NCBI GenBank assembly: GCA_033238685.1
Contig: BRZM01000010.1
Coordinates: 3,846,968-3,888,404 of the forward strand
DNA from: Lates japonicus
Taxonomy: Eukaryota
Reading direction: 5' to 3'
Length of the DNA stretch: 41,437 bases
Translations under genes and position numbers: made by a program
Part shown: positions 18,651 to 37,017 of the stretch, piece by piece
Position numbering within the stretch: position 1 is the first letter of the stretch
Layout of the letters: each line of letters starts with the position of its first letter
Notes under the pieces: model-generated
Seen by the model: the letters and a program-made list of their open reading frames with translations, nothing else
Told to the model about the DNA's origin: nothing
Databases searched by the model: none

Positions 18651-20704
18651 TCCTCTAGATCTTACAGTTTATCGCTACACTAACCAAAGATTATGGGATG
18701 TTTTGCTTCAATTGTGGTAAATGTGCAATGAAACGTATATTAGAAAAAGTTATTATTTACATCACATACAGGGGTGAGCATTATGTTACAGATGTAATGC
18801 TTTAATTATGTTTACATGTGTCTTTAATTTAGATTAAGAGAAACTTGCAAATATAACGAGCAAGTATAAAAAATGAAAAGCTTTATAAGTATCATGTTAT
18901 AGTTTTATGTAGCCTAAATTTATTGATGGGTTTTTTAATTTGAAAATTGTAATGGAAGGAAAATCAAATGTGGGATGTGAAATGATATTTTCTTTGAGAG
19001 TAAATAATTTGCAACTGTCACTTTGTTGTTTGGTTTTTTAGAAGATTAGAATGGAAAACATGGGTTTACCTGACAAACAAAAATATTATTATTACTACAC
19101 TAAATTTGTCAGTGATAGAGTTCTGACCAGGCTAAGATAGGATTTCCTTTTAATGAGTAGCATTTCTTTTATATTCCTGGGATAAGTAAATGGGTGGTGA
19201 TAGTCATGTTATTGTCAGATTTTGTATGAATTACTGTGGATTTAAACCAAAAAGCTCAGAGTTGGGATTAATTGCTATTTGACACGTTTAATGGAAAATG
19301 GAGACTGCAACTGAGATCCTCTCAAACAGTGAGAGGTGAATGATAGATGTGTAAACACAGCTTATCATCTAATGCTTTTACAACCTTGTTATCTGCACTG
19401 AATTTCTCTGTGAGGTTGATAATGAGTCACGGTAAAACATGGTAAGTAAATAAAACTATATTTAGTGCTTCTCATTGAATATCAGTAATTTCACCATAAC
19501 CTTAATAGAGACATAAATGTTAATGGAAGTATATAAAATCACAACGTAACTTTAAGTATACCTCAGAGCATGTGTTTTTCCATAGGCCTTGTTAACTGAG
19601 TTATTTTGAATGTCCTAAAAGCTGTTTTTCCCCAAATATTGCTGTTGTGTGACAGAAGTTTGGGAGTAGGAAATGTGCTATATGAAATTCAACAGCTATT
19701 CAACTGTTCTTCCATTGTTGCCATAGTGCATCTTATCGTGTTTGTTTGGTCTGACATTATCTGAAGGGACATGACCGGTTGTGACAAGTCCAATGAAGGC
19801 TTGCAGTGTCTTGAAAATAAAAGCACTTTGAAAAATTTGTGTTGTATTTTTTTTTAAATATATGTTTTGAAGGTCTTTCCTTGCAAATGGCACACAACTT
19901 ATCAGATAAAGTGATGAAGTGATCTGAACAGATATGTTAAAATATGTTATGCTATTTGGAAAGTGGTTGTTCAAATTCAAGAGATTATATGAATTCCCAG
20001 CAAATAGCTTCATTTTAACTTGTGTTAAAAAATTGTTTATTTATTTACTTTATCCAAGTAGTTTATAACGTCATTAAAATTAGCCCCATCTTTGCCAGAT
20101 ACAGCCTCAAAGTCATGAACACATTAAGGCATAAATAACTGTAATCCAGTGATATACATTATTCCATATGATATATTTAAGTATGAACATTTTGATGATA
20201 CAAGAAAGTCATACATGCAAGCTTAATTTGCATTGTATGTTTTTATTCAGTCACTGGGTTAAATAAATAATTTTCTGATGGTTATTTAATGTGTCAGGTC
20301 TCATGGGGTTCACTAAGTGAGCTTACTGTCTCTTCCACCACCCAATGGCCTTAACTTTTAATGATGTTTTTATGGCCTTGGGCAGCCGTTAATGTCCGAG
20401 CAGCACTTGAACGCAGCATCAAGCTGATCTCCAGCTCCCAGGTGAGACAGACACGCCTTCTCCCGCACGACAACACAGTTAAAAGATCAAAAACTGGATC
20501 TACTGGTCTCTCTATTAGGAGTACAGAGTTTCCACTCTATGAAAACCCACACAGAAGTCACAAGGATCAGTGGAAAGTCTCCGGTCTCCAGCCTTTTTCT
20601 TTTTTCTTTTTTTTCCTTTCTGTTTTTTTCACTCAGCAGGGAGGATCTTAAACTTCAAATCCCAGCGAGTGAAAACAACCGGCAACATCGTCGACAGGGG
20701 ACGA

Positions 20705-20710
20705 TATAAA
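20705..20710 (+). promoter_or_regulatory. TATA box (TATAAA) of the ApoL-domain gene
   Basis: GGGACGATATAAACTC lies about 100 nt upstream of the first ATG|gtgagt exon and is preceded by a pyrimidine-rich tract. The transcription start site is inferred about 30 nt downstream (~20735). Confidence 0.4.
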
Positions 20711-20812
20711 CTCTCTTCTGAGGACGGAAACATTTCGACAACATTTATCCACTAACGTCAGTTAATCTGCGGAATAACTGAACACAAAACAAGGACGCAG
20801 CAAGAGTGGCCA

Positions 20813-20815
20813 ATG
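20813..20815 (+). CDS. ApoL-domain gene, exon 1: ATG start codon immediately followed by donor (caATG|gtgagt). The exon itself runs ~20735-20815.
   Basis: ATG at 20813-20815, then gtgagt. The exon upstream of the ATG is a 5' leader. Confidence 0.4.
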
Positions 20816-20931
20816 GTGAGTTAACGGTTAAACTTCAACCATCTTTCTGTATCATAACTGTTCAACATGTCGGTTAATGCGTTTGAAAATAACCTTCAAT
20901 GACACTGAATCGTGTCGTTACCATTTGGCAG

Positions 20932-20985
20932 GATCGGTACGATAACCTGGATTTGGACTTGGAGTGTGATGGAGGAGGTGTTGCA
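20932..20985 (+). CDS. ApoL-domain gene, exon 2
   Basis: Acceptor ccatttggcag; donor GCA|gtgagt. Encodes DRYDNLDLDLECDGGGVA. Phase 0-0. Confidence 0.5.
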
Positions 20986-34421: not shown

Positions 34422-34473
34422 CATGGGAAGACACGCCTCAAGATGATGACATGACAGAAAAAGAAGAGGCCAA
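34422..34473 (+). CDS. ApoL-domain gene, exon 34
   Basis: Acceptor ttacttcctcag; donor AA|gtaagt. Encodes (S)WEDTPQDDDMTEKEEA(K). Confidence 0.55.
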
Positions 34474-34712
34474 GTAAGTGAAGGGTCAAATATATAAGCC
34501 CATACTGCATCTTTTCTTCGGTCTCTTCAGTATACCTTTTTCTCTTAATTCTAGTGGTATTTAGGCATGCAGATGCTTTCAGTTTTATGCACATACTACT
34601 ACTAATACACTACTGTCTGCATGTCTACATACACTGGCGTAAGTAGAAAAAATGTCATTTTTAGATACAGTGACCTGGCTCTATGTAATTACTCTCAACA
34701 TTATGTATTCAG

Positions 34713-35670
34713 GGCATTTGCTGTGACGGCTGAAAAGGTGCAGAAGGGAATCCGTGTCTTCAACAAACTGTTCTCGGAGCGCGCTGAGAGTCTCTGGCAG
34801 CACGTCATCGACCTCAACGGCATTGCTGATGCCCTGGACAAGTTCAACAAGAAAACAAAGATCGCTCAAATCACCGGCGGCTCCACTAGCGCCATTGGGG
34901 GTGTTGCCACCATCGCCGGCCTTGCTCTGGCCCCAGTCACTATGGGAACCTCTTTGATTGTGACGGCAGTGGGATTGGGCGTTGCCACAGCGGGCGGTCT
35001 GACATCAGCAGGTGCCGGCATCTCCAACCAGGTCAACAACTCAATGGACCGCAAGAAGGTGGAGAAGATCGTGGAAGACTACCAGGAAAAGATGGTGGAC
35101 TTGAACAAGTGCCTGAAATTCATCAAGCAGGGTATTGAGAACCTGCGCAAATTTGACCTGATCAAGATGAAAAAACATGCATACAATCGTGACTTCCCTG
35201 TGCTCAGTAGTAGTTTCTATGAGGACGGTGCCATGGCAGGAAAAGCTATCCTCATCAACGCCAATGAGATCATGCGTGTGGTTCAGATCGCCAACGTGGC
35301 CGGCAGCACAGCAGCCAGAGCGGTGCAGATCGCCAGCATGGCCACTGGTGTGCTCACTGGCCTCTTCGTAGGTATGGACATCTACTTTGTGGCTAAAGAC
35401 TCCAAAGAACTCAAGAAAGGAGCAAAGTCAGAGTTCGCTGCCAAAATCAGGGAGGTGGCAACACAACTGCACGATGGTCTGGTGGAGCTCAACTCAATAC
35501 GAGAGGAGCTGCAGTCCACCACACCAGAAAACAACCCTGACAAAGATACAGCTGCTTTGGATGATGACAAGAAAGAGAAAGATGATAGATATGACAGTTC
35601 AGAAGAAGATGAAATTGACCGCATTAAAAAAGCCATCAAAAAGGACTATGAGAATCGAGAATATGTGTGA
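34713..35670 (+). CDS. ApoL-domain gene, terminal coding exon: apolipoprotein-L family domain
   Basis: Acceptor cattatgtattcag; an alternative acceptor tcatttttag at 34664 would add 16 in-frame codons. Encodes (K)AFAVTAEKVQKGIRVFNKLFSERAESLWQHVIDLNGIADALDKFNKKTKIAQITGGSTSAIGGVATIAGLALAPVTMGTSLIVTAVGLGVATAGGLTSAGAGISNQVNNSMDRKKVEKIVEDYQEKMVDLNKCLKFIKQG...GMDIYFVAKDSKELKKGAKSEFAAKIREVATQLHDGLVELNSIREELQ..., then an acidic tail and TGA at 35668-35670. The Gly/Ala-rich membrane-insertion hairpin and overall layout match the ApoL family (Pfam PF05461). Confidence 0.8.
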
Positions 35671-36328
35671 ACAAAACTTCCAAAAGAACCGACTCAAAAC
35701 TACAATCAGACTTATTGTGAATGTCCAAAGAGGTGACTTCACTCTTGATGAAATACACAGGTTTCTAAAACTTCTAGATTTTTCTTTTAGGTAAGTGACT
35801 GCGAGGAATCTGATCAGCATTTACACTACAGGGAGGAACTGAGGTTTTGTGGTAGATAAAGTATCGTATCTGCTTCTCAGGCAGTTATGCCAACGTGTGA
35901 AACTGCCGTGTTGTCTATGAGAAAGTGGGATTTAAATAAATCATGTATTCGGATGGTGTAGTTTTAGATTAATTCAAGATATACTATAGGTGCAAAGTAT
36001 TTTCTATTTGTACTTTATAAAGTGTTGCTTAGAAGTTCATCAGAGTTTATTGGTTCATATTGAAACACTGGGGCTTTTACTGACCAGCTGTAGAGATTGT
36101 GTATACTCAAAGAGAGGAGTGCCTTTATTATTTATAATGCCTTTGAAATACTATATGATGCAGAGCAGCATTAATGTGTTTCTTCTCTTTTTTTTTCTTT
36201 TTGTTGTTGTTGTTTGGGGTGTCAGGGCTGCAATGAAACCACTTCCCTTCCACTTCAGGTTTTGGATATGATGTGGGATATTTTAATGTCTTGTTTGGCT
36301 TGATGACATTGGTCTGATTTTGAAGAAT

Positions 36329-36341
36329 AATAAACAATAAA
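36329..36341 (+). terminator. Tandem poly(A) signals (AATAAA x2), probable 3' end of the ApoL-domain transcript
   Basis: aataataaacaataaacactaataag lies about 660 nt downstream of the stop codon, with no competing exon-like signal in between. Confidence 0.4.
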
Positions 36342-37017
36342 CACTAATAAGTTTTGTTTTAAAGCTGCTTCCAAAAGAGCCGAATGACAAAATTATAGTG
36401 AGGAAGAACACAATTGGGTTGCATCAGCTGTTCATAAGTCAATCACTAATTTTGAGTGTTAAGTCCTTTCTAAGTCACTAGCTATTGCAAAAGCAGTGAT
36501 TTGCGAAATACGGTTTTGCCTCAAGATGAACGTTGAGATTGATGAACAGACCTTGTAATGTGACATAATGAAAGATCAGTGGGGTGGCGTCCAGGATGCC
36601 CCACAACACCCCGACAAAAAAATGATGAATGAACATGGCATTACGGTTATATTGCCCCTTGTTGGTTTGGCATGCTTTAGACTGGGTGTTTACAATTTCT
36701 TGACCCACCTTCCCAACAAGACACAAGAATGTGAACGATGGTTGGTCAAACTTATAGTGTTGACAATCTCCCGACCAAGACATGGAAAGAATTTATGGCA
36801 CCATATGTGCATAGTCTGACGTGGTGACCATCGTGAAAGACAAACCAATAGTGTAGTCTGATCCTGGCATAAGAAACCTATTACTGGTCATTTAATCTAA
36901 CATTATATTATTTTGTAATTTGGTGGTAAATTCTGTTTCTTCCCAGTTTAAATCATTAGTAAAGAGCATATTGATCAAGTGTGAAAGTCAGCTATTGTCA
37001 TTACTTCTAAAATTCCT

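What the first reader, a model, noticed from the sequence alone, without database searches (positions are those of the whole stretch)
20700..36360. Unusual gene architecture: about 32 tandem phase-0 micro-exons encoding a modular disordered arm fused to a C-terminal apolipoprotein-L domain
Downstream of a TATA box and an ATG-only exon 1, I can chain at least 33 short exons. All are 48-90 nt, all are multiples of three, and all have canonical AG|...|GT boundaries. They run in one unbroken frame (no stop over ~2.1 kb of spliced sequence) into a 958-nt terminal exon whose product is a clear ApoL-family domain (Gly/Ala-rich helical hairpin AQITGGSTSAIGGVATIAGLALAPVTMGTSLIVTAVGLGVATAGGLTSAG..., PF05461-like). 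The micro-exons fall into recurring module classes that alternate regularly. They include: GGMFSGMFKK...SQ (exons 3, 5, 7, 9, 11, 13); DLSASSELSxSNDSLTxNxNTK (4, 6, 8, 10, 12, 14); xxxMxKLNPFRSxxK (19, 21); PxVPxRPTxE (23, 25); and KxxxHNPFMPRVxxK (28, 30). This implies repeated tandem duplication of two-exon units. Every exon is symmetric, so any subset can be skipped without breaking the frame, which is the classic substrate for combinatorial alternative splicing. I do not recognise a described orthologue with this N-terminal arm. ApoL-domain proteins are normally compact, so a K/S/D/E-rich, probably intrinsically disordered extension of 700 or more residues in front of the ApoL membrane-insertion domain is unusual.
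Basis: partly seen in the sequence, partly recalled or inferred. Interest (0 to 1): 0.78.

Follow-up and report, generated by a model that had tools for sequence, protein, structure and literature searches.

The report
Fish apolipoprotein-L gene with modular arm
This is the sea-perch (Lates) copy of the teleost gene annotated as "apolipoprotein L1": 31 small, frame-neutral exons encode a long floppy arm in front of a membrane-inserting ApoL domain. The layout is real and neat, but more than 100 fish genomes already carry the same annotated gene.

Summary
I rebuilt a 35-exon gene (20813-35670, + strand; CDS 3096 nt, 1031 aa, one terminal stop). It has an ATG-only coding start, 31 consecutive phase-0 exons of 48-90 nt, two short non-symmetric exons (40 and 52 nt) and a 958-nt ApoL exon (Pfam PF05461, E=3e-37). 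Not every exon is symmetric. And the gene is not without described orthologues: more than 100 teleost RefSeq/UniProt proteins of about 900-1280 aa match it end to end at 55-81% identity, mostly named "apolipoprotein L1 isoform X…". An intron-free RNA-seq contig from another fish carries the arm and the ApoL domain in one ORF. The same exon plan is present in shad apol1 and in the stickleback paralogue apold1a. Annotated isoforms within a species differ only by whole cassette units. The arm is predicted to be disordered. Its exons alternate between basic motif-bearing ones and acidic Ser-rich ones, and it carries 5 conserved NPF and 2 PxVPxRP motifs. My best reading is a cytosolic, splice-tunable multivalent scaffold tethered to membranes by the ApoL domain. 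The identity is near certain; the mechanism is inferred, at about 0.3. Interest is modest.

The parts
20703..20711 (+). TATA-like element GATATAAAC, 102 nt upstream of the ATG (putative core promoter)
   Evidence: its role as a promoter is inferred
20813..20815 (+). Coding part of exon 1: ATG only, followed by GTGAGT donor
   Evidence: orthologues start M-DRYD
20932..20985 (+). Exon 2, 54 nt, phase 0/0: DRYDNLDLDLECDGGGVA
22224..22295 (+). Exon 3, 72 nt, basic GGMFKK module
22600..22668 (+). Exon 4, 69 nt, acidic DNLSASSELSKSNDSL module
22802..22870 (+). Exon 5, 69 nt, basic GGVFKGMFKK module
23268..23342 (+). Exon 6, 75 nt, ELSASRDSLTDN module
23436..23504 (+). Exon 7, 69 nt, basic GVLGGILKR module
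23646..23708 (+). Exon 8, 63 nt, acidic DLLDNELSASNDSL module
24114..24161 (+). Decoy copy of the exon-9 acceptor plus the first 32 nt of exon 9 (61-bp tandem duplication). Using this acceptor would shift the frame into a stop
24191..24259 (+). Exon 9, 69 nt, ESGGMFSGMFKK module
24355..24423 (+). Exon 10, 69 nt, DDLSAPSELSGSNDNL module
24664..24732 (+). Exon 11, 69 nt, ESGGMFSGIFKK module. With exon 12 it forms the youngest duplicate of exons 9-10
24828..24893 (+). Exon 12, 66 nt, EDLSAASELSGSNDNL module
24988..25044 (+). Exon 13, 57 nt, EKGGFLSVFKKK module
25399..25458 (+). Exon 14, 60 nt, DDLSVEDELSTDSL module
25582..25632 (+). Exon 15, 51 nt, first NPF exon (KNPFTSSSQ); absent from 41% of the orthologue proteins aligned
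25745..25819 (+). Exon 16, 75 nt, acidic spacer
26042..26089 (+). Exon 17, 48 nt, NGFSAMMKSTFYTDKQ
26183..26251 (+). Exon 18, 69 nt, acidic spacer
26373..26426 (+). Exon 19, 54 nt, KLNPFRS module (NPF at least 90% conserved)
26565..26636 (+). Exon 20, 72 nt, acidic spacer
27552..27605 (+). Exon 21, 54 nt, second KLNPFRS module. It is an annotated cassette exon in several other species
28154..28216 (+). Exon 22, 63 nt (KDTEDTEALKENKKQVEEPKM). A weaker alternative donor lies at 28198
   Evidence: 103 of 104 orthologues carry the VEEKPKP extension
28496..28573 (+). Exon 23, 78 nt, proline-rich ETPLVPPRPTEE module
28674..28739 (+). Exon 24, 66 nt; the Lates japonicus partial protein P0100 starts here
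29005..29085 (+). Exon 25, 81 nt, second proline-rich module ETPVVPTRPTGE; with exon 26 it forms a cassette in other species
29215..29268 (+). Exon 26, 54 nt
29506..29592 (+). Exon 27, 87 nt, acidic spacer
30887..30943 (+). Exon 28, 57 nt, basic KKHTHHNPFMPRV module
31498..31587 (+). Exon 29, 90 nt, highly acidic spacer (net charge -9)
31762..31812 (+). Exon 30, 51 nt, KVKKPKRHNPFMPRVK. This is the most conserved NPF module; its Pro is invariant and its Asn and Phe at least 90% conserved across the 70 sequences aligned, from paddlefish to percomorphs (gar itself has no NPF)
32854..32907 (+). Exon 31, 54 nt
33657..33734 (+). Exon 32, 78 nt, the last symmetric exon (NEGGNRSLFDQLEDFRIDPAQPENEQ)
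33843..33882 (+). Exon 33, 40 nt, phase 0 to 1: DVEDLMEWWNTVE(S). It holds the invariant L..WW motif and cannot be skipped in frame
34422..34473 (+). Exon 34, 52 nt, phase 1 to 2: (S)WEDTPQDDDMTEKEEA(K)
34713..35670 (+). Coding part of terminal exon 35 (958 nt including the stop): ApoL domain with a Gly/Ala-rich hydrophobic hairpin and an acidic, helical C-terminal tail
36329..36341 (+). Two overlapping AATAAA signals (a further one lies at 35935); probable end of the 3' UTR
   Evidence: inferred

Best explanation
The locus is the Lates orthologue of the teleost gene that databases call apol1 ('apolipoprotein L1'). It is a 35-exon gene.

Exons 2-32 are 31 phase-0 exons of 48-90 nt. They encode a signal-peptide-less, intrinsically disordered arm of about 713 aa. 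The arm alternates exon by exon between basic, motif-bearing modules (GGxFxGxFKK, KLNPFRS, KKPKRHNPFMPRV, PxVPPRP) and acidic Ser/Asp/Glu-rich spacers. Exons 33-34 are non-symmetric and so obligatory. They encode a conserved LMEWWNTVE-WED junction. Exon 35 encodes the ApoL helical domain with its hydrophobic Gly/Ala-rich hairpin.

The proposed mechanism is inferred. The ApoL domain inserts into or associates with an intracellular or plasma membrane from the cytosolic side. The arm projects into the cytosol as a multivalent array of short linear motifs. These are five NPF motifs, which are EH-domain ligands (Eps15, intersectin or EHD-type proteins), and two class-II PxxPxR sites resembling the p47phox proline-rich region, which are SH3 ligands. 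Because every arm exon is symmetric, skipping cassettes of one exon, one two-exon unit or several units changes arm length and motif number without breaking the frame. Lineage-specific duplication of two-exon units does the same over evolutionary time.

Identity and architecture: confidence about 0.97. EH/SH3 scaffold mechanism: about 0.3.
For: - Gene model: 3096-nt CDS with a single terminal stop and 34 GT-AG introns.
- ApoL domain: PF05461 at E=3.4e-37. The most hydrophobic 19-residue stretch is LALAPVTMGTSLIVTAVGL (mean Kyte-Doolittle hydropathy 1.8). The arm's maximum is 0.57, and the N-terminus is acidic, so there is no signal peptide.
- Orthology: the top 120 of 345 hits are all teleost PF05461 proteins; most span 100% of the query.
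- Species: P0100 from Lates japonicus is identical over exons 24-35.
- Transcript proof in a related fish: Logan RNA-seq contig L001 has an uninterrupted 2979-nt ORF covering arm plus ApoL.
- Same exon plan: Alosa apol1 and Pungitius apold1a.
- Isoforms: same-species isoforms differ only by whole cassettes. These include the 18-aa NPF exon 21, the 43-aa PRR unit and GGMF/DLS units of 47-141 aa.
- Disorder: the charge-hydropathy plot puts the arm on the disordered side, mean H 0.346 against a 0.422 boundary. AF2 gives no secondary structure and pLDDT about 30-45 over P0001 residues 1-647.
- Charge: net charge alternates exon by exon.
- Motif conservation: most NPF residues in exons 19, 28 and 30 are at least 90% conserved while the flanks vary. 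In the exon-30 motif the Pro is invariant and the Asn and Phe at least 90% conserved across 70 sequences that include paddlefish.
- PRR module: in catfish orthologues it passes Pfam's p47_phox_C gathering score.
- Literature: NPF motifs in disordered regions are EH-domain ligands (PMC12370899, PMC13282721). Signal-peptide-less APOLs sit on the cytoplasmic leaflet (PMC8557400).
Against: - No transcript or protein data exist for this species.
- RefSeq isoforms are computational. In repeated units they could partly reflect read mis-mapping.
- The arm has no Pfam hit of its own at E<=1.
- The NPF flanks are basic (KKPKRH-NPF-MPRVK). As far as I know, EHD-type EH domains prefer acidic residues after NPF.
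- NPF can also be read by non-EH receptors such as POLE2 (PMC12808100).
- Cyprinids and some catfishes, such as Silurus, keep only one NPF and a short arm, so most of the arm is dispensable in some lineages.
- The GGxFxGxFKK module, the most repeated one, has no known partner.
- Membrane topology was not tested.
Confidence: 0.55

Rival explanations
1. The arm is mainly a charge-patterned polyampholyte or electrostatic switch. The hydrophobic-basic GGxFxGxFKK and K-rich modules bind acidic membranes in a MARCKS-like way. Phosphorylation of the neighbouring acidic Ser-rich exons, which are rich in CK2-type S-x-x-D/E sites, releases them. On this view NPF and PxxP are secondary.
For: Positive and negative exons alternate strictly across exons 2-22 and 27-30. 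There are 24 S-x-x-[DE] sites. The GGxF..FKK and DLS..S.DSL cores are conserved in apol1 and in the paralogue apold1a. The GGMF/DLS unit is the one most often amplified.
Against: The best-conserved positions in the arm are the NPF tripeptides and the KKPK-NPF-MP core. These persist even where the GGMF/DLS units are lost, as in Danio and paddlefish. No test of membrane binding was possible.
Confidence: 0.25
2. The arm is a largely neutral, expandable spacer (an entropic bristle). Its repeat number drifts by exon duplication and loss, and only the junction and the ApoL domain are functional.
For: Arm length varies about four-fold among teleost apol1 orthologues, with total protein lengths from about 440 aa in cyprinids to 1278 aa in Fundulus. 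Different lineages amplify different units. Gar and paddlefish relatives are only 390-412 aa.
Against: Module order and sequences are conserved between percomorphs, shad and tarpon, whose lineages split near the base of the teleosts. Mean per-exon conservation is 0.56-0.90, with motif cores at 0.9 or above. The reading frame and all 31 symmetric exons are maintained.
Confidence: 0.12
3. The chain is an artefact: two neighbouring genes, or fortuitous ORF fragments, have been stitched together.
For: The last two small exons break the claimed symmetry. In this genus only a partial 555-aa model is deposited.
Against: An intron-free transcript contig from another fish spans arm plus ApoL. More than 100 collinear full-length orthologues exist. 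The exon plan is the same in Alosa and in a paralogue. No orthologue residues map outside the model.
Confidence: 0.02

Closest known systems
Teleost apol1 ('apolipoprotein L1', zebrafish apol1 / zApoL1 orthologue group; RefSeq models such as Toxotes jaculatrix P0001, Amphiprion ocellaris P0004, Alosa alosa P0125)
   Same: Collinear over the whole 1031 aa at 55-81% identity in percomorphs. The module order, the WW junction, the ApoL domain (about 92% mean conservation) and the phase-0 small-exon plan are all the same.
   Different: Nothing essential, so this is a member. Copy numbers of units differ. Zebrafish-lineage proteins have a much shorter arm, with one NPF and about 464 aa in total. The zebrafish kidney papers (PMC4492502, PMC4854397) used NP_001025309.1 from a 2.6-kb locus. 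Their translation-blocking morpholino encodes MEWLDDFR, which is an internal Met in the Danio aesculapii model. The published zebrafish protein therefore appears to lack even that short arm (an inference).
Teleost paralogues apold1a and si:cabz01007807.1
   Same: Both have long N-terminal arms and a C-terminal PF05461 domain, with total lengths of about 1000-1700 aa. The remaining features were read only in the apold1a-type proteins: an arm built of phase-0 small exons with alternating EKGGxFSGMFKK and D..ELSASSDSL modules, and a 'LMDWWNTV' junction.
   Different: The ApoL domain is only about 40% identical. The apold1a-type proteins examined have no NPF, begin with a proline-rich basic MEACMMKPEVKKKPKPP leader, and in Pungitius split the ApoL domain over two exons.
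Mammalian APOL1-6 and APOLD1
   Same: They share the Pfam ApoL domain and its hydrophobic hairpin. Most members are intracellular, membrane-associated proteins without a signal peptide (PMC8557400, PMC12248542).
   Different: The mammalian proteins are compact, about 280-430 aa by my recollection, and have no modular arm. Human APOL1 is secreted through a signal peptide and has the SRA-binding C-terminus. The fish name 'L1' is nominal. APOL reviews trace the family only to amniote APOLD1 and do not mention the fish arms.
NPF-array endocytic adaptors (for example Dab2, epsin and Rab11-FIP2-type disordered regions that bind Eps15 or EHD EH domains)
   Same: Several NPF tripeptides sit in a long disordered region, which allows multivalent engagement (PMC12370899, PMC13282721).
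   Different: Here the array is fused to a membrane-inserting ApoL domain rather than to ENTH, PTB or C2 modules. The flanks are basic rather than acidic. Binding has not been tested.
Tandem symmetric-exon arrays such as the titin PEVK exons and the 54-bp exons of fibrillar collagens (from my own knowledge)
   Same: They have runs of small exons that are all multiples of three in one phase. They evolve by unit duplication and allow in-frame cassette skipping.
   Different: Here the repeating unit is a two-exon pair, basic motif plus acidic spacer, and it carries protein-binding motifs rather than elastic or triple-helix repeats.

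Membership tests
ApoL family (Pfam PF05461) | Match to the ApoL profile above the curated gathering score | tested here: met
   128.9 bits against a 25.9-bit cut-off, E=3.4e-37, profile positions 43-297 of 298
ApoL family (Pfam PF05461) | Gly/Ala-rich hydrophobic helical hairpin (membrane-insertion segment) | tested here: met
   The maximum 19-residue mean Kyte-Doolittle hydropathy is 1.8, at LALAPVTMGTSLIVTAVGL. Gly, Pro, Thr and Ser positions in this segment are invariant across 70 homologues.
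ApoL family (Pfam PF05461) | Helical-bundle fold comparable to solved APOL structures | tested here: inconclusive
   The AF2 model of the domain is all-helical but has mean pLDDT 69. Foldseek against the PDB gives nothing at E<0.07. phmmer against the PDB gives nothing. The afdb50 library was unavailable.
ApoL family (Pfam PF05461) | Membrane insertion or ion-channel activity | not testable with these tools
   Needs biochemistry
Teleost apol1 orthologue group | End-to-end collinear similarity to annotated teleost 'apolipoprotein L1' proteins | tested here: met
   100% query coverage at 55-81% identity for most of the 120 proteins listed. The per-exon presence map shows all 35 exons represented.
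Teleost apol1 orthologue group | Same exon-intron plan | tested here: met
   Alosa alosa locus L002 has about 30 AG/GT-bounded phase-0 exons of 45-84 nt, then the split-codon WW junction exons, then the ApoL exon.
Teleost apol1 orthologue group | Conserved synteny (tep1 neighbour) | not tested
   tep1 exons lie upstream in this window. Neighbours in other species were not examined.
Human APOL1 (secreted trypanolytic factor) orthology | N-terminal signal peptide | tested here: not met
   The N-terminus MDRYDNLDLDLECDGGG is acidic. The arm's maximum 19-residue mean hydropathy is 0.57. [quoted passage not shown]
EH-domain ligand proteins (NPF motif class) | NPF tripeptides located in a disordered region and evolutionarily conserved | tested here: met
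   Five NPF motifs at residues 298, 380, 422, 582 and 631. Most NPF residues in exons 19, 28 and 30 are at least 90% conserved. The median per orthologue is 4, range 2-8.
EH-domain ligand proteins (NPF motif class) | Physical binding to an EH domain | not testable with these tools
   Needs a pull-down, ITC or NMR experiment
SH3 class-II ligand / p47phox proline-rich region | PxxPxR core; match to Pfam p47_phox_C | tested here: inconclusive
   Two PxVPxRP sites (ETPLVPPRPTEEEM and ETPVVPTRPTGEEM) are present. The window's arm has no Pfam hit at E<=1. The homologous module in the catfish orthologue P0302 scores 31.3 bits against a 27-bit cut-off.
Micro-exons in the strict sense (27 nt or less, or 51 nt or less; definitions from my own knowledge) | Exon length of 51 nt or less | tested here: not met
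   The symmetric exons are 48-90 nt. Only exons 15 (51 nt), 17 (48), 30 (51) and 33 (40) are 51 nt or shorter.
Tandem symmetric-exon arrays open to cassette splicing | Consecutive exons all of length 3n in the same phase, with isoforms differing by whole exons | tested here: met
   31 consecutive phase-0/0 exons. Isoform pairs in about 10 other species differ only by whole units. Usage in Lates itself was not tested.

The most novel reading that the evidence does not exclude
The ancestral teleost ApoL proteins (apol1 and apold1a) are membrane-anchored, splice-tunable multivalent scaffolds. Their arms of alternating basic and acidic exons recruit EH- and SH3-domain trafficking machinery to the membrane patch where the ApoL domain sits. 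That would give the ApoL family a primary role in membrane trafficking or fission rather than in lipoprotein or pore biology. As a corollary, the zebrafish 'apol1' nephropathy models used an N-terminally truncated protein and a start-codon morpholino aimed at an internal Met.
Probability: 0.25. Interest if true: 0.55.

Novelty: already known. Interest (0 to 1): 0.33.

Why it matters
This locus adds little that is new, because the gene and its architecture are already in RefSeq and UniProt for more than 100 fishes.

Two things are still worth knowing. First, the papers I could search on APOL evolution and on zebrafish apol1 do not mention the arm. They treat fish Apol1 as a compact stand-in for human APOL1. 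The long arm rich in NPF and PxxP motifs argues that the fish protein has partners and regulation that human APOL1 lacks. This matters for interpreting the zebrafish nephropathy models.

Second, the gene is an unusually clean textbook case. A disordered, motif-bearing region is built and resized by duplication of two-exon, phase-0 units and by cassette splicing.

Tried and rejected
That gives a stop after six codons. The two missing asymmetric exons were found only through homologues.
- My first model used the 45-nt version of exon 22. I corrected it to 63 nt because 103 of 104 orthologues carry the extension.
- PDB sequence search and PDB fold search found nothing significant. The afdb50 library was unavailable.
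- The full-length AF2 model was low-confidence everywhere. I used it only as an indicator of disorder.
- A Pfam scan of the arm found no family.
- Genomic look-ups for P0100, P0134 and P0136 found no record.
- The first literature search was swamped by neuropeptide FF papers.
- I considered a polyprotein or peptide-precursor reading of the repeated GGMFSGMFKK units. I rejected it because there is no signal peptide and the arm is fused to a membrane domain.
- I considered two separate genes and rejected it.
- Tandem Repeats Finder sees no DNA-level array. The repeats are old and are visible mainly at the protein level.

Full report
**What is in the sequence.** The long ORF at 34621-35670 hits Pfam ApoL (PF05461) at E=3.4e-37, 128.9 bits against a 25.9-bit cut-off. 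Listing every AG…GT interval that is open in phase 0 recovered a clean series of small exons with polypyrimidine tracts and consensus-like donors.

**Fixing the junction to the ApoL exon.** The good acceptor of the ApoL exon (tattcag|G at 34712/34713) is not in phase 0. Read in phase 0 it runs GGC ATT TGC TGT GAC GGC TGA. No plausible bridging exon could be found ab initio. Homologues solved it. Two further exons exist:
- 33843-33882 (40 nt, DVEDLMEWWNTVE + 1 nt);
- 34422-34473 (52 nt, 2 nt + WEDTPQDDDMTEKEEA + 2 nt).

Homologues also confirmed exon 2 at 20932-20985 (DRYDNLDLDLECDGGGVA). Exon 22 was later corrected to its 63-nt form (28154-28216), because 103 of 104 orthologues carry the VEEKPKP-type extension.

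**Final model.**
- 35 exons; CDS 3096 nt; 1031 aa; one terminal stop.
- All 34 introns are GT-AG, 93-1294 nt long (median about 230).
- Exons 2-32 are 31 consecutive phase-0/0 exons of 48-90 nt.
- Exon 33 goes from phase 0 to 1, exon 34 from phase 1 to 2, and exon 35 supplies 958 coding nt.
- A TATA-like element lies 102 nt upstream of the ATG.
- AATAAA signals lie at 35935 and 36329/36336.

The statements that all exons are multiples of three and that every exon is symmetric are wrong for exons 33-35.

**Is it real?** Yes.
- A search with the conceptual protein returned 345 hits. The best 120 are all teleost proteins of about 555-1280 aa with PF05461. Most cover 100% of the query at 55-81% identity.
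- A partial Lates japonicus protein (P0100) is identical over exons 24-35, so the window comes from Lates.
- When all 120 proteins are searched back against the window, every match falls inside my exons except one pseudo-exon fragment.
- One hit (P0079) is encoded on a 4159-nt Logan RNA-seq contig (SRR27393481). It carries an uninterrupted 2979-nt ORF running from MERYDNLDLDLE… through all module classes into the ApoL domain.
- Exact-translation mapping of Alosa alosa apol1 onto its locus shows the same plan: about 30 AG/GT-bounded phase-0 exons of 45-84 nt, the split-codon WW junction exons, then the ApoL exon.
- The paralogue apold1a of Pungitius has about 37 phase-0 small exons alternating EKGGxFSGMFKK and D..ELSASSDSL modules, then a DLMDWWNTVKG junction and the ApoL domain.

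**How widespread is it?** The 50%-identity representative search found 1303 relatives. Many are proteins of 600-1700 aa with the ApoL domain at the C-terminus. Source names give this picture:
- Long-armed apol1 occurs in Percomorpha, Gadiformes, Osmeriformes, Salmoniformes (about 550-770 aa), Clupeiformes (Alosa, 966-1037 aa) and Elopomorpha (Megalops 772 aa, Aldrovandia 799 aa).
- The arm is short in cyprinids (about 440-490 aa in total, one NPF) and in some catfishes such as Silurus.
- The nearest gar and paddlefish proteins are 390-412 aa.
- Two further teleost families, apold1a and si:cabz01007807.1, also have long arms.

**Alternative splicing.** Eighteen same-species isoform pairs from the hit list were aligned. 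They differ only by insertion or deletion of whole units, with zero mismatches elsewhere in 17 of the 18 pairs and 3 in the other. The units are:
- the 18-aa KLNPFRS exon, equivalent to exon 21 (Chaetodon, Fundulus, Epinephelus, Syngnathus, Gymnodraco);
- the 43-aa PRR pair, equivalent to exons 25-26 (Morone, Labrus);
- GGMF/DLS blocks of 47, 91-93 and 138-141 aa, that is one to three two-exon units (Trematomus, Hippoglossus, Labrus, Epinephelus, Gymnodraco);
- HNPFMPR-plus-acidic units of 48-176 aa (Acanthopagrus, Fundulus, Cyprinodon, Syngnathoides).

These are RefSeq predictions, not proof. In repeated units they could partly reflect read mis-mapping. They are nevertheless exactly what a phase-0 array allows. 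Exons 33 and 34 cannot be skipped in frame, alone or together (92 nt). They encode the invariant L..WW…W motif.

**Evolution of the array.**
- At the DNA level only exons 9-10 against exons 11-12 are similar through the intron, at 78% over 253 bp. Other module similarities are confined to exons.
- Tandem Repeats Finder sees no array.
- Both units have one-to-one orthologues in Toxotes, so even the youngest duplication predates that split.
- Different lineages have amplified different two-exon units: GGMF/DLS in flatfish and notothenioids, NPF/acidic in killifishes, and PRR in the catfish Pangasianodon.

**The protein.**
- The arm is 713 aa. Composition on the 707-aa draft was K 12.6%, S 11.6%, E 9.6% and D 9.2%, with only 16% hydrophobic residues.
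- On the charge-hydropathy plot the arm falls on the disordered side (mean H 0.346 against a boundary of 0.422). The ApoL part falls on the ordered side.
- An AF2 model of the 81%-identical Toxotes orthologue, built with 70 sequences, shows no secondary structure and pLDDT of about 30-45 over residues 1-647.
- There is no hydrophobic N-terminus or transmembrane-like segment in the arm: its maximum 19-residue mean hydropathy is 0.57, against 1.8 for the ApoL hairpin.
- Net charge alternates exon by exon across exons 2-22 and 27-30. Basic exons carry a hydrophobic motif and acidic Ser-rich exons act as spacers.
- Motifs: five NPF, two PxVPxRP, three strict G.F.G.FKK (six looser copies) and 24 S-x-x-[DE] sites.
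- Conservation across 120 orthologues peaks on these cores. Most NPF residues in exons 19, 28 and 30 are at least 90% conserved. In the exon-30 motif KKPK..NPFMP the Pro is invariant and the Asn and Phe at least 90% conserved across 70 sequences, including paddlefish.
- The arm itself has no Pfam hit. The homologous PRR module in a catfish orthologue passes the p47_phox_C threshold.
- The ApoL domain is about 92% conserved. Alone, it models as long helices with mean pLDDT 69. No solved structure matches it significantly.

**Mechanism (inferred).** NPF motifs in disordered regions are the canonical EH-domain ligands and act multivalently (PMC12370899, PMC13282721). PxxPxR is a class-II SH3 ligand (my own knowledge). 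APOLs without a signal peptide sit on the cytoplasmic face of membranes (PMC8557400). I therefore propose a membrane-anchored cytosolic scaffold whose valency is set by cassette splicing and by unit duplication. Caveats are the basic flanks of the NPFs, alternative NPF receptors (PMC12808100), the unknown partner of the GGxFxGxFKK module, and the near-loss of the arm in cyprinids. The main rivals are an electrostatic membrane switch and a neutral spacer.

**Comparison with what is known.** The locus is a member of the teleost apol1 group. The two zebrafish kidney papers worked with NP_001025309.1 from a 2.6-kb locus. Their translation-blocking morpholino encodes MEWLDDFR. That sequence is internal (…KKTLMEWLDDFRLSE…) in the 464-aa Danio aesculapii model and corresponds to my exon 32. 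Two recent APOL evolution and cell-biology papers trace the family to amniote APOLD1 and do not mention fish arms. The architecture is thus catalogued in databases but, within the library I could search, not discussed in the literature.

**Verdict.** This is a real and elegant gene structure, correctly spotted, but it is an already annotated, teleost-wide gene. Novelty: already known. Interest: 0.33.

Noticed in passing
window 24114-24222: A 61-bp tandem duplication in intron 8. Positions 24114-24161 are 100% identical to 24175-24222. The copy includes the polypyrimidine tract, the AG and the first 32 nt of exon 9. Splicing to the upstream AG would give a 130-nt exon that shifts the frame into TAA, so it is a decoy 3' splice site, or else a very recent or assembly-level duplication.
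   Followed up: partly
window 28257-28296 and 28439-28486: A (CA)20 tract and a (TG)n tract lie in intron 22. They are complementary to each other and about 140 nt apart. The second ends 10 nt before the exon-23 acceptor. They could form an intronic RNA hairpin next to a splice site.
   Followed up: no
window 33586-33594: A second exact copy of the promoter 9-mer GATATAAAC lies 71 nt upstream of exon 32. In 8 of 100 shuffles the 9-mer occurred at least twice. The published short zebrafish Apol1 starts at a Met in the exon-32 equivalent, so an internal promoter producing an arm-less isoform is conceivable.
   Followed up: no
window 1-16000, + strand: Exons of a TEP1-like gene (telomerase protein component 1) lie upstream of the ApoL gene in the same orientation. 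Translated fragments hit TROVE, DUF4062 and WD40.
   Followed up: partly
window 28199-28216: Exon 22 has two in-frame donors, at 28198 (CAA|GTGGAG) and 28216 (ATG|GTCAGT). Orthologues almost always include the extension, but as 7 aa (VEEKPKP). Lates encodes 6 aa (VEEPKM), which implies a 3-nt deletion.
   Followed up: yes
L003 (Pungitius pungitius apold1a) and L002 (Alosa alosa apol1): The paralogue apold1a has the same design: about 37 phase-0 small exons with alternating GGxFSGMFKK and ELSASSDSL modules, then a WW junction and the ApoL domain. The arm therefore predates the split between apol1 and apold1a. The Alosa gene model spans 49 kb and contains one doubtful 45-nt exon inside a 33-kb gap.
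   Followed up: partly
literature: PMC4854397, PMC4492502; protein P0340: The zebrafish apol1 translation-blocking morpholino targets ATGGAATGGCTGGACGACTTTCGAT (MEWLDDFR). This is an internal Met at about residue 139 of the current Danio aesculapii apol1 model. The zebrafish studies probably used an N-terminally truncated gene model.
   Followed up: partly
protein P0232 (Condylura cristata, 1092 aa): This is the only non-teleost among the long ApoL-domain hits whose source names were looked up. It is a star-nosed mole prediction at 30% identity, probably a fused or mis-predicted model.
   Followed up: no
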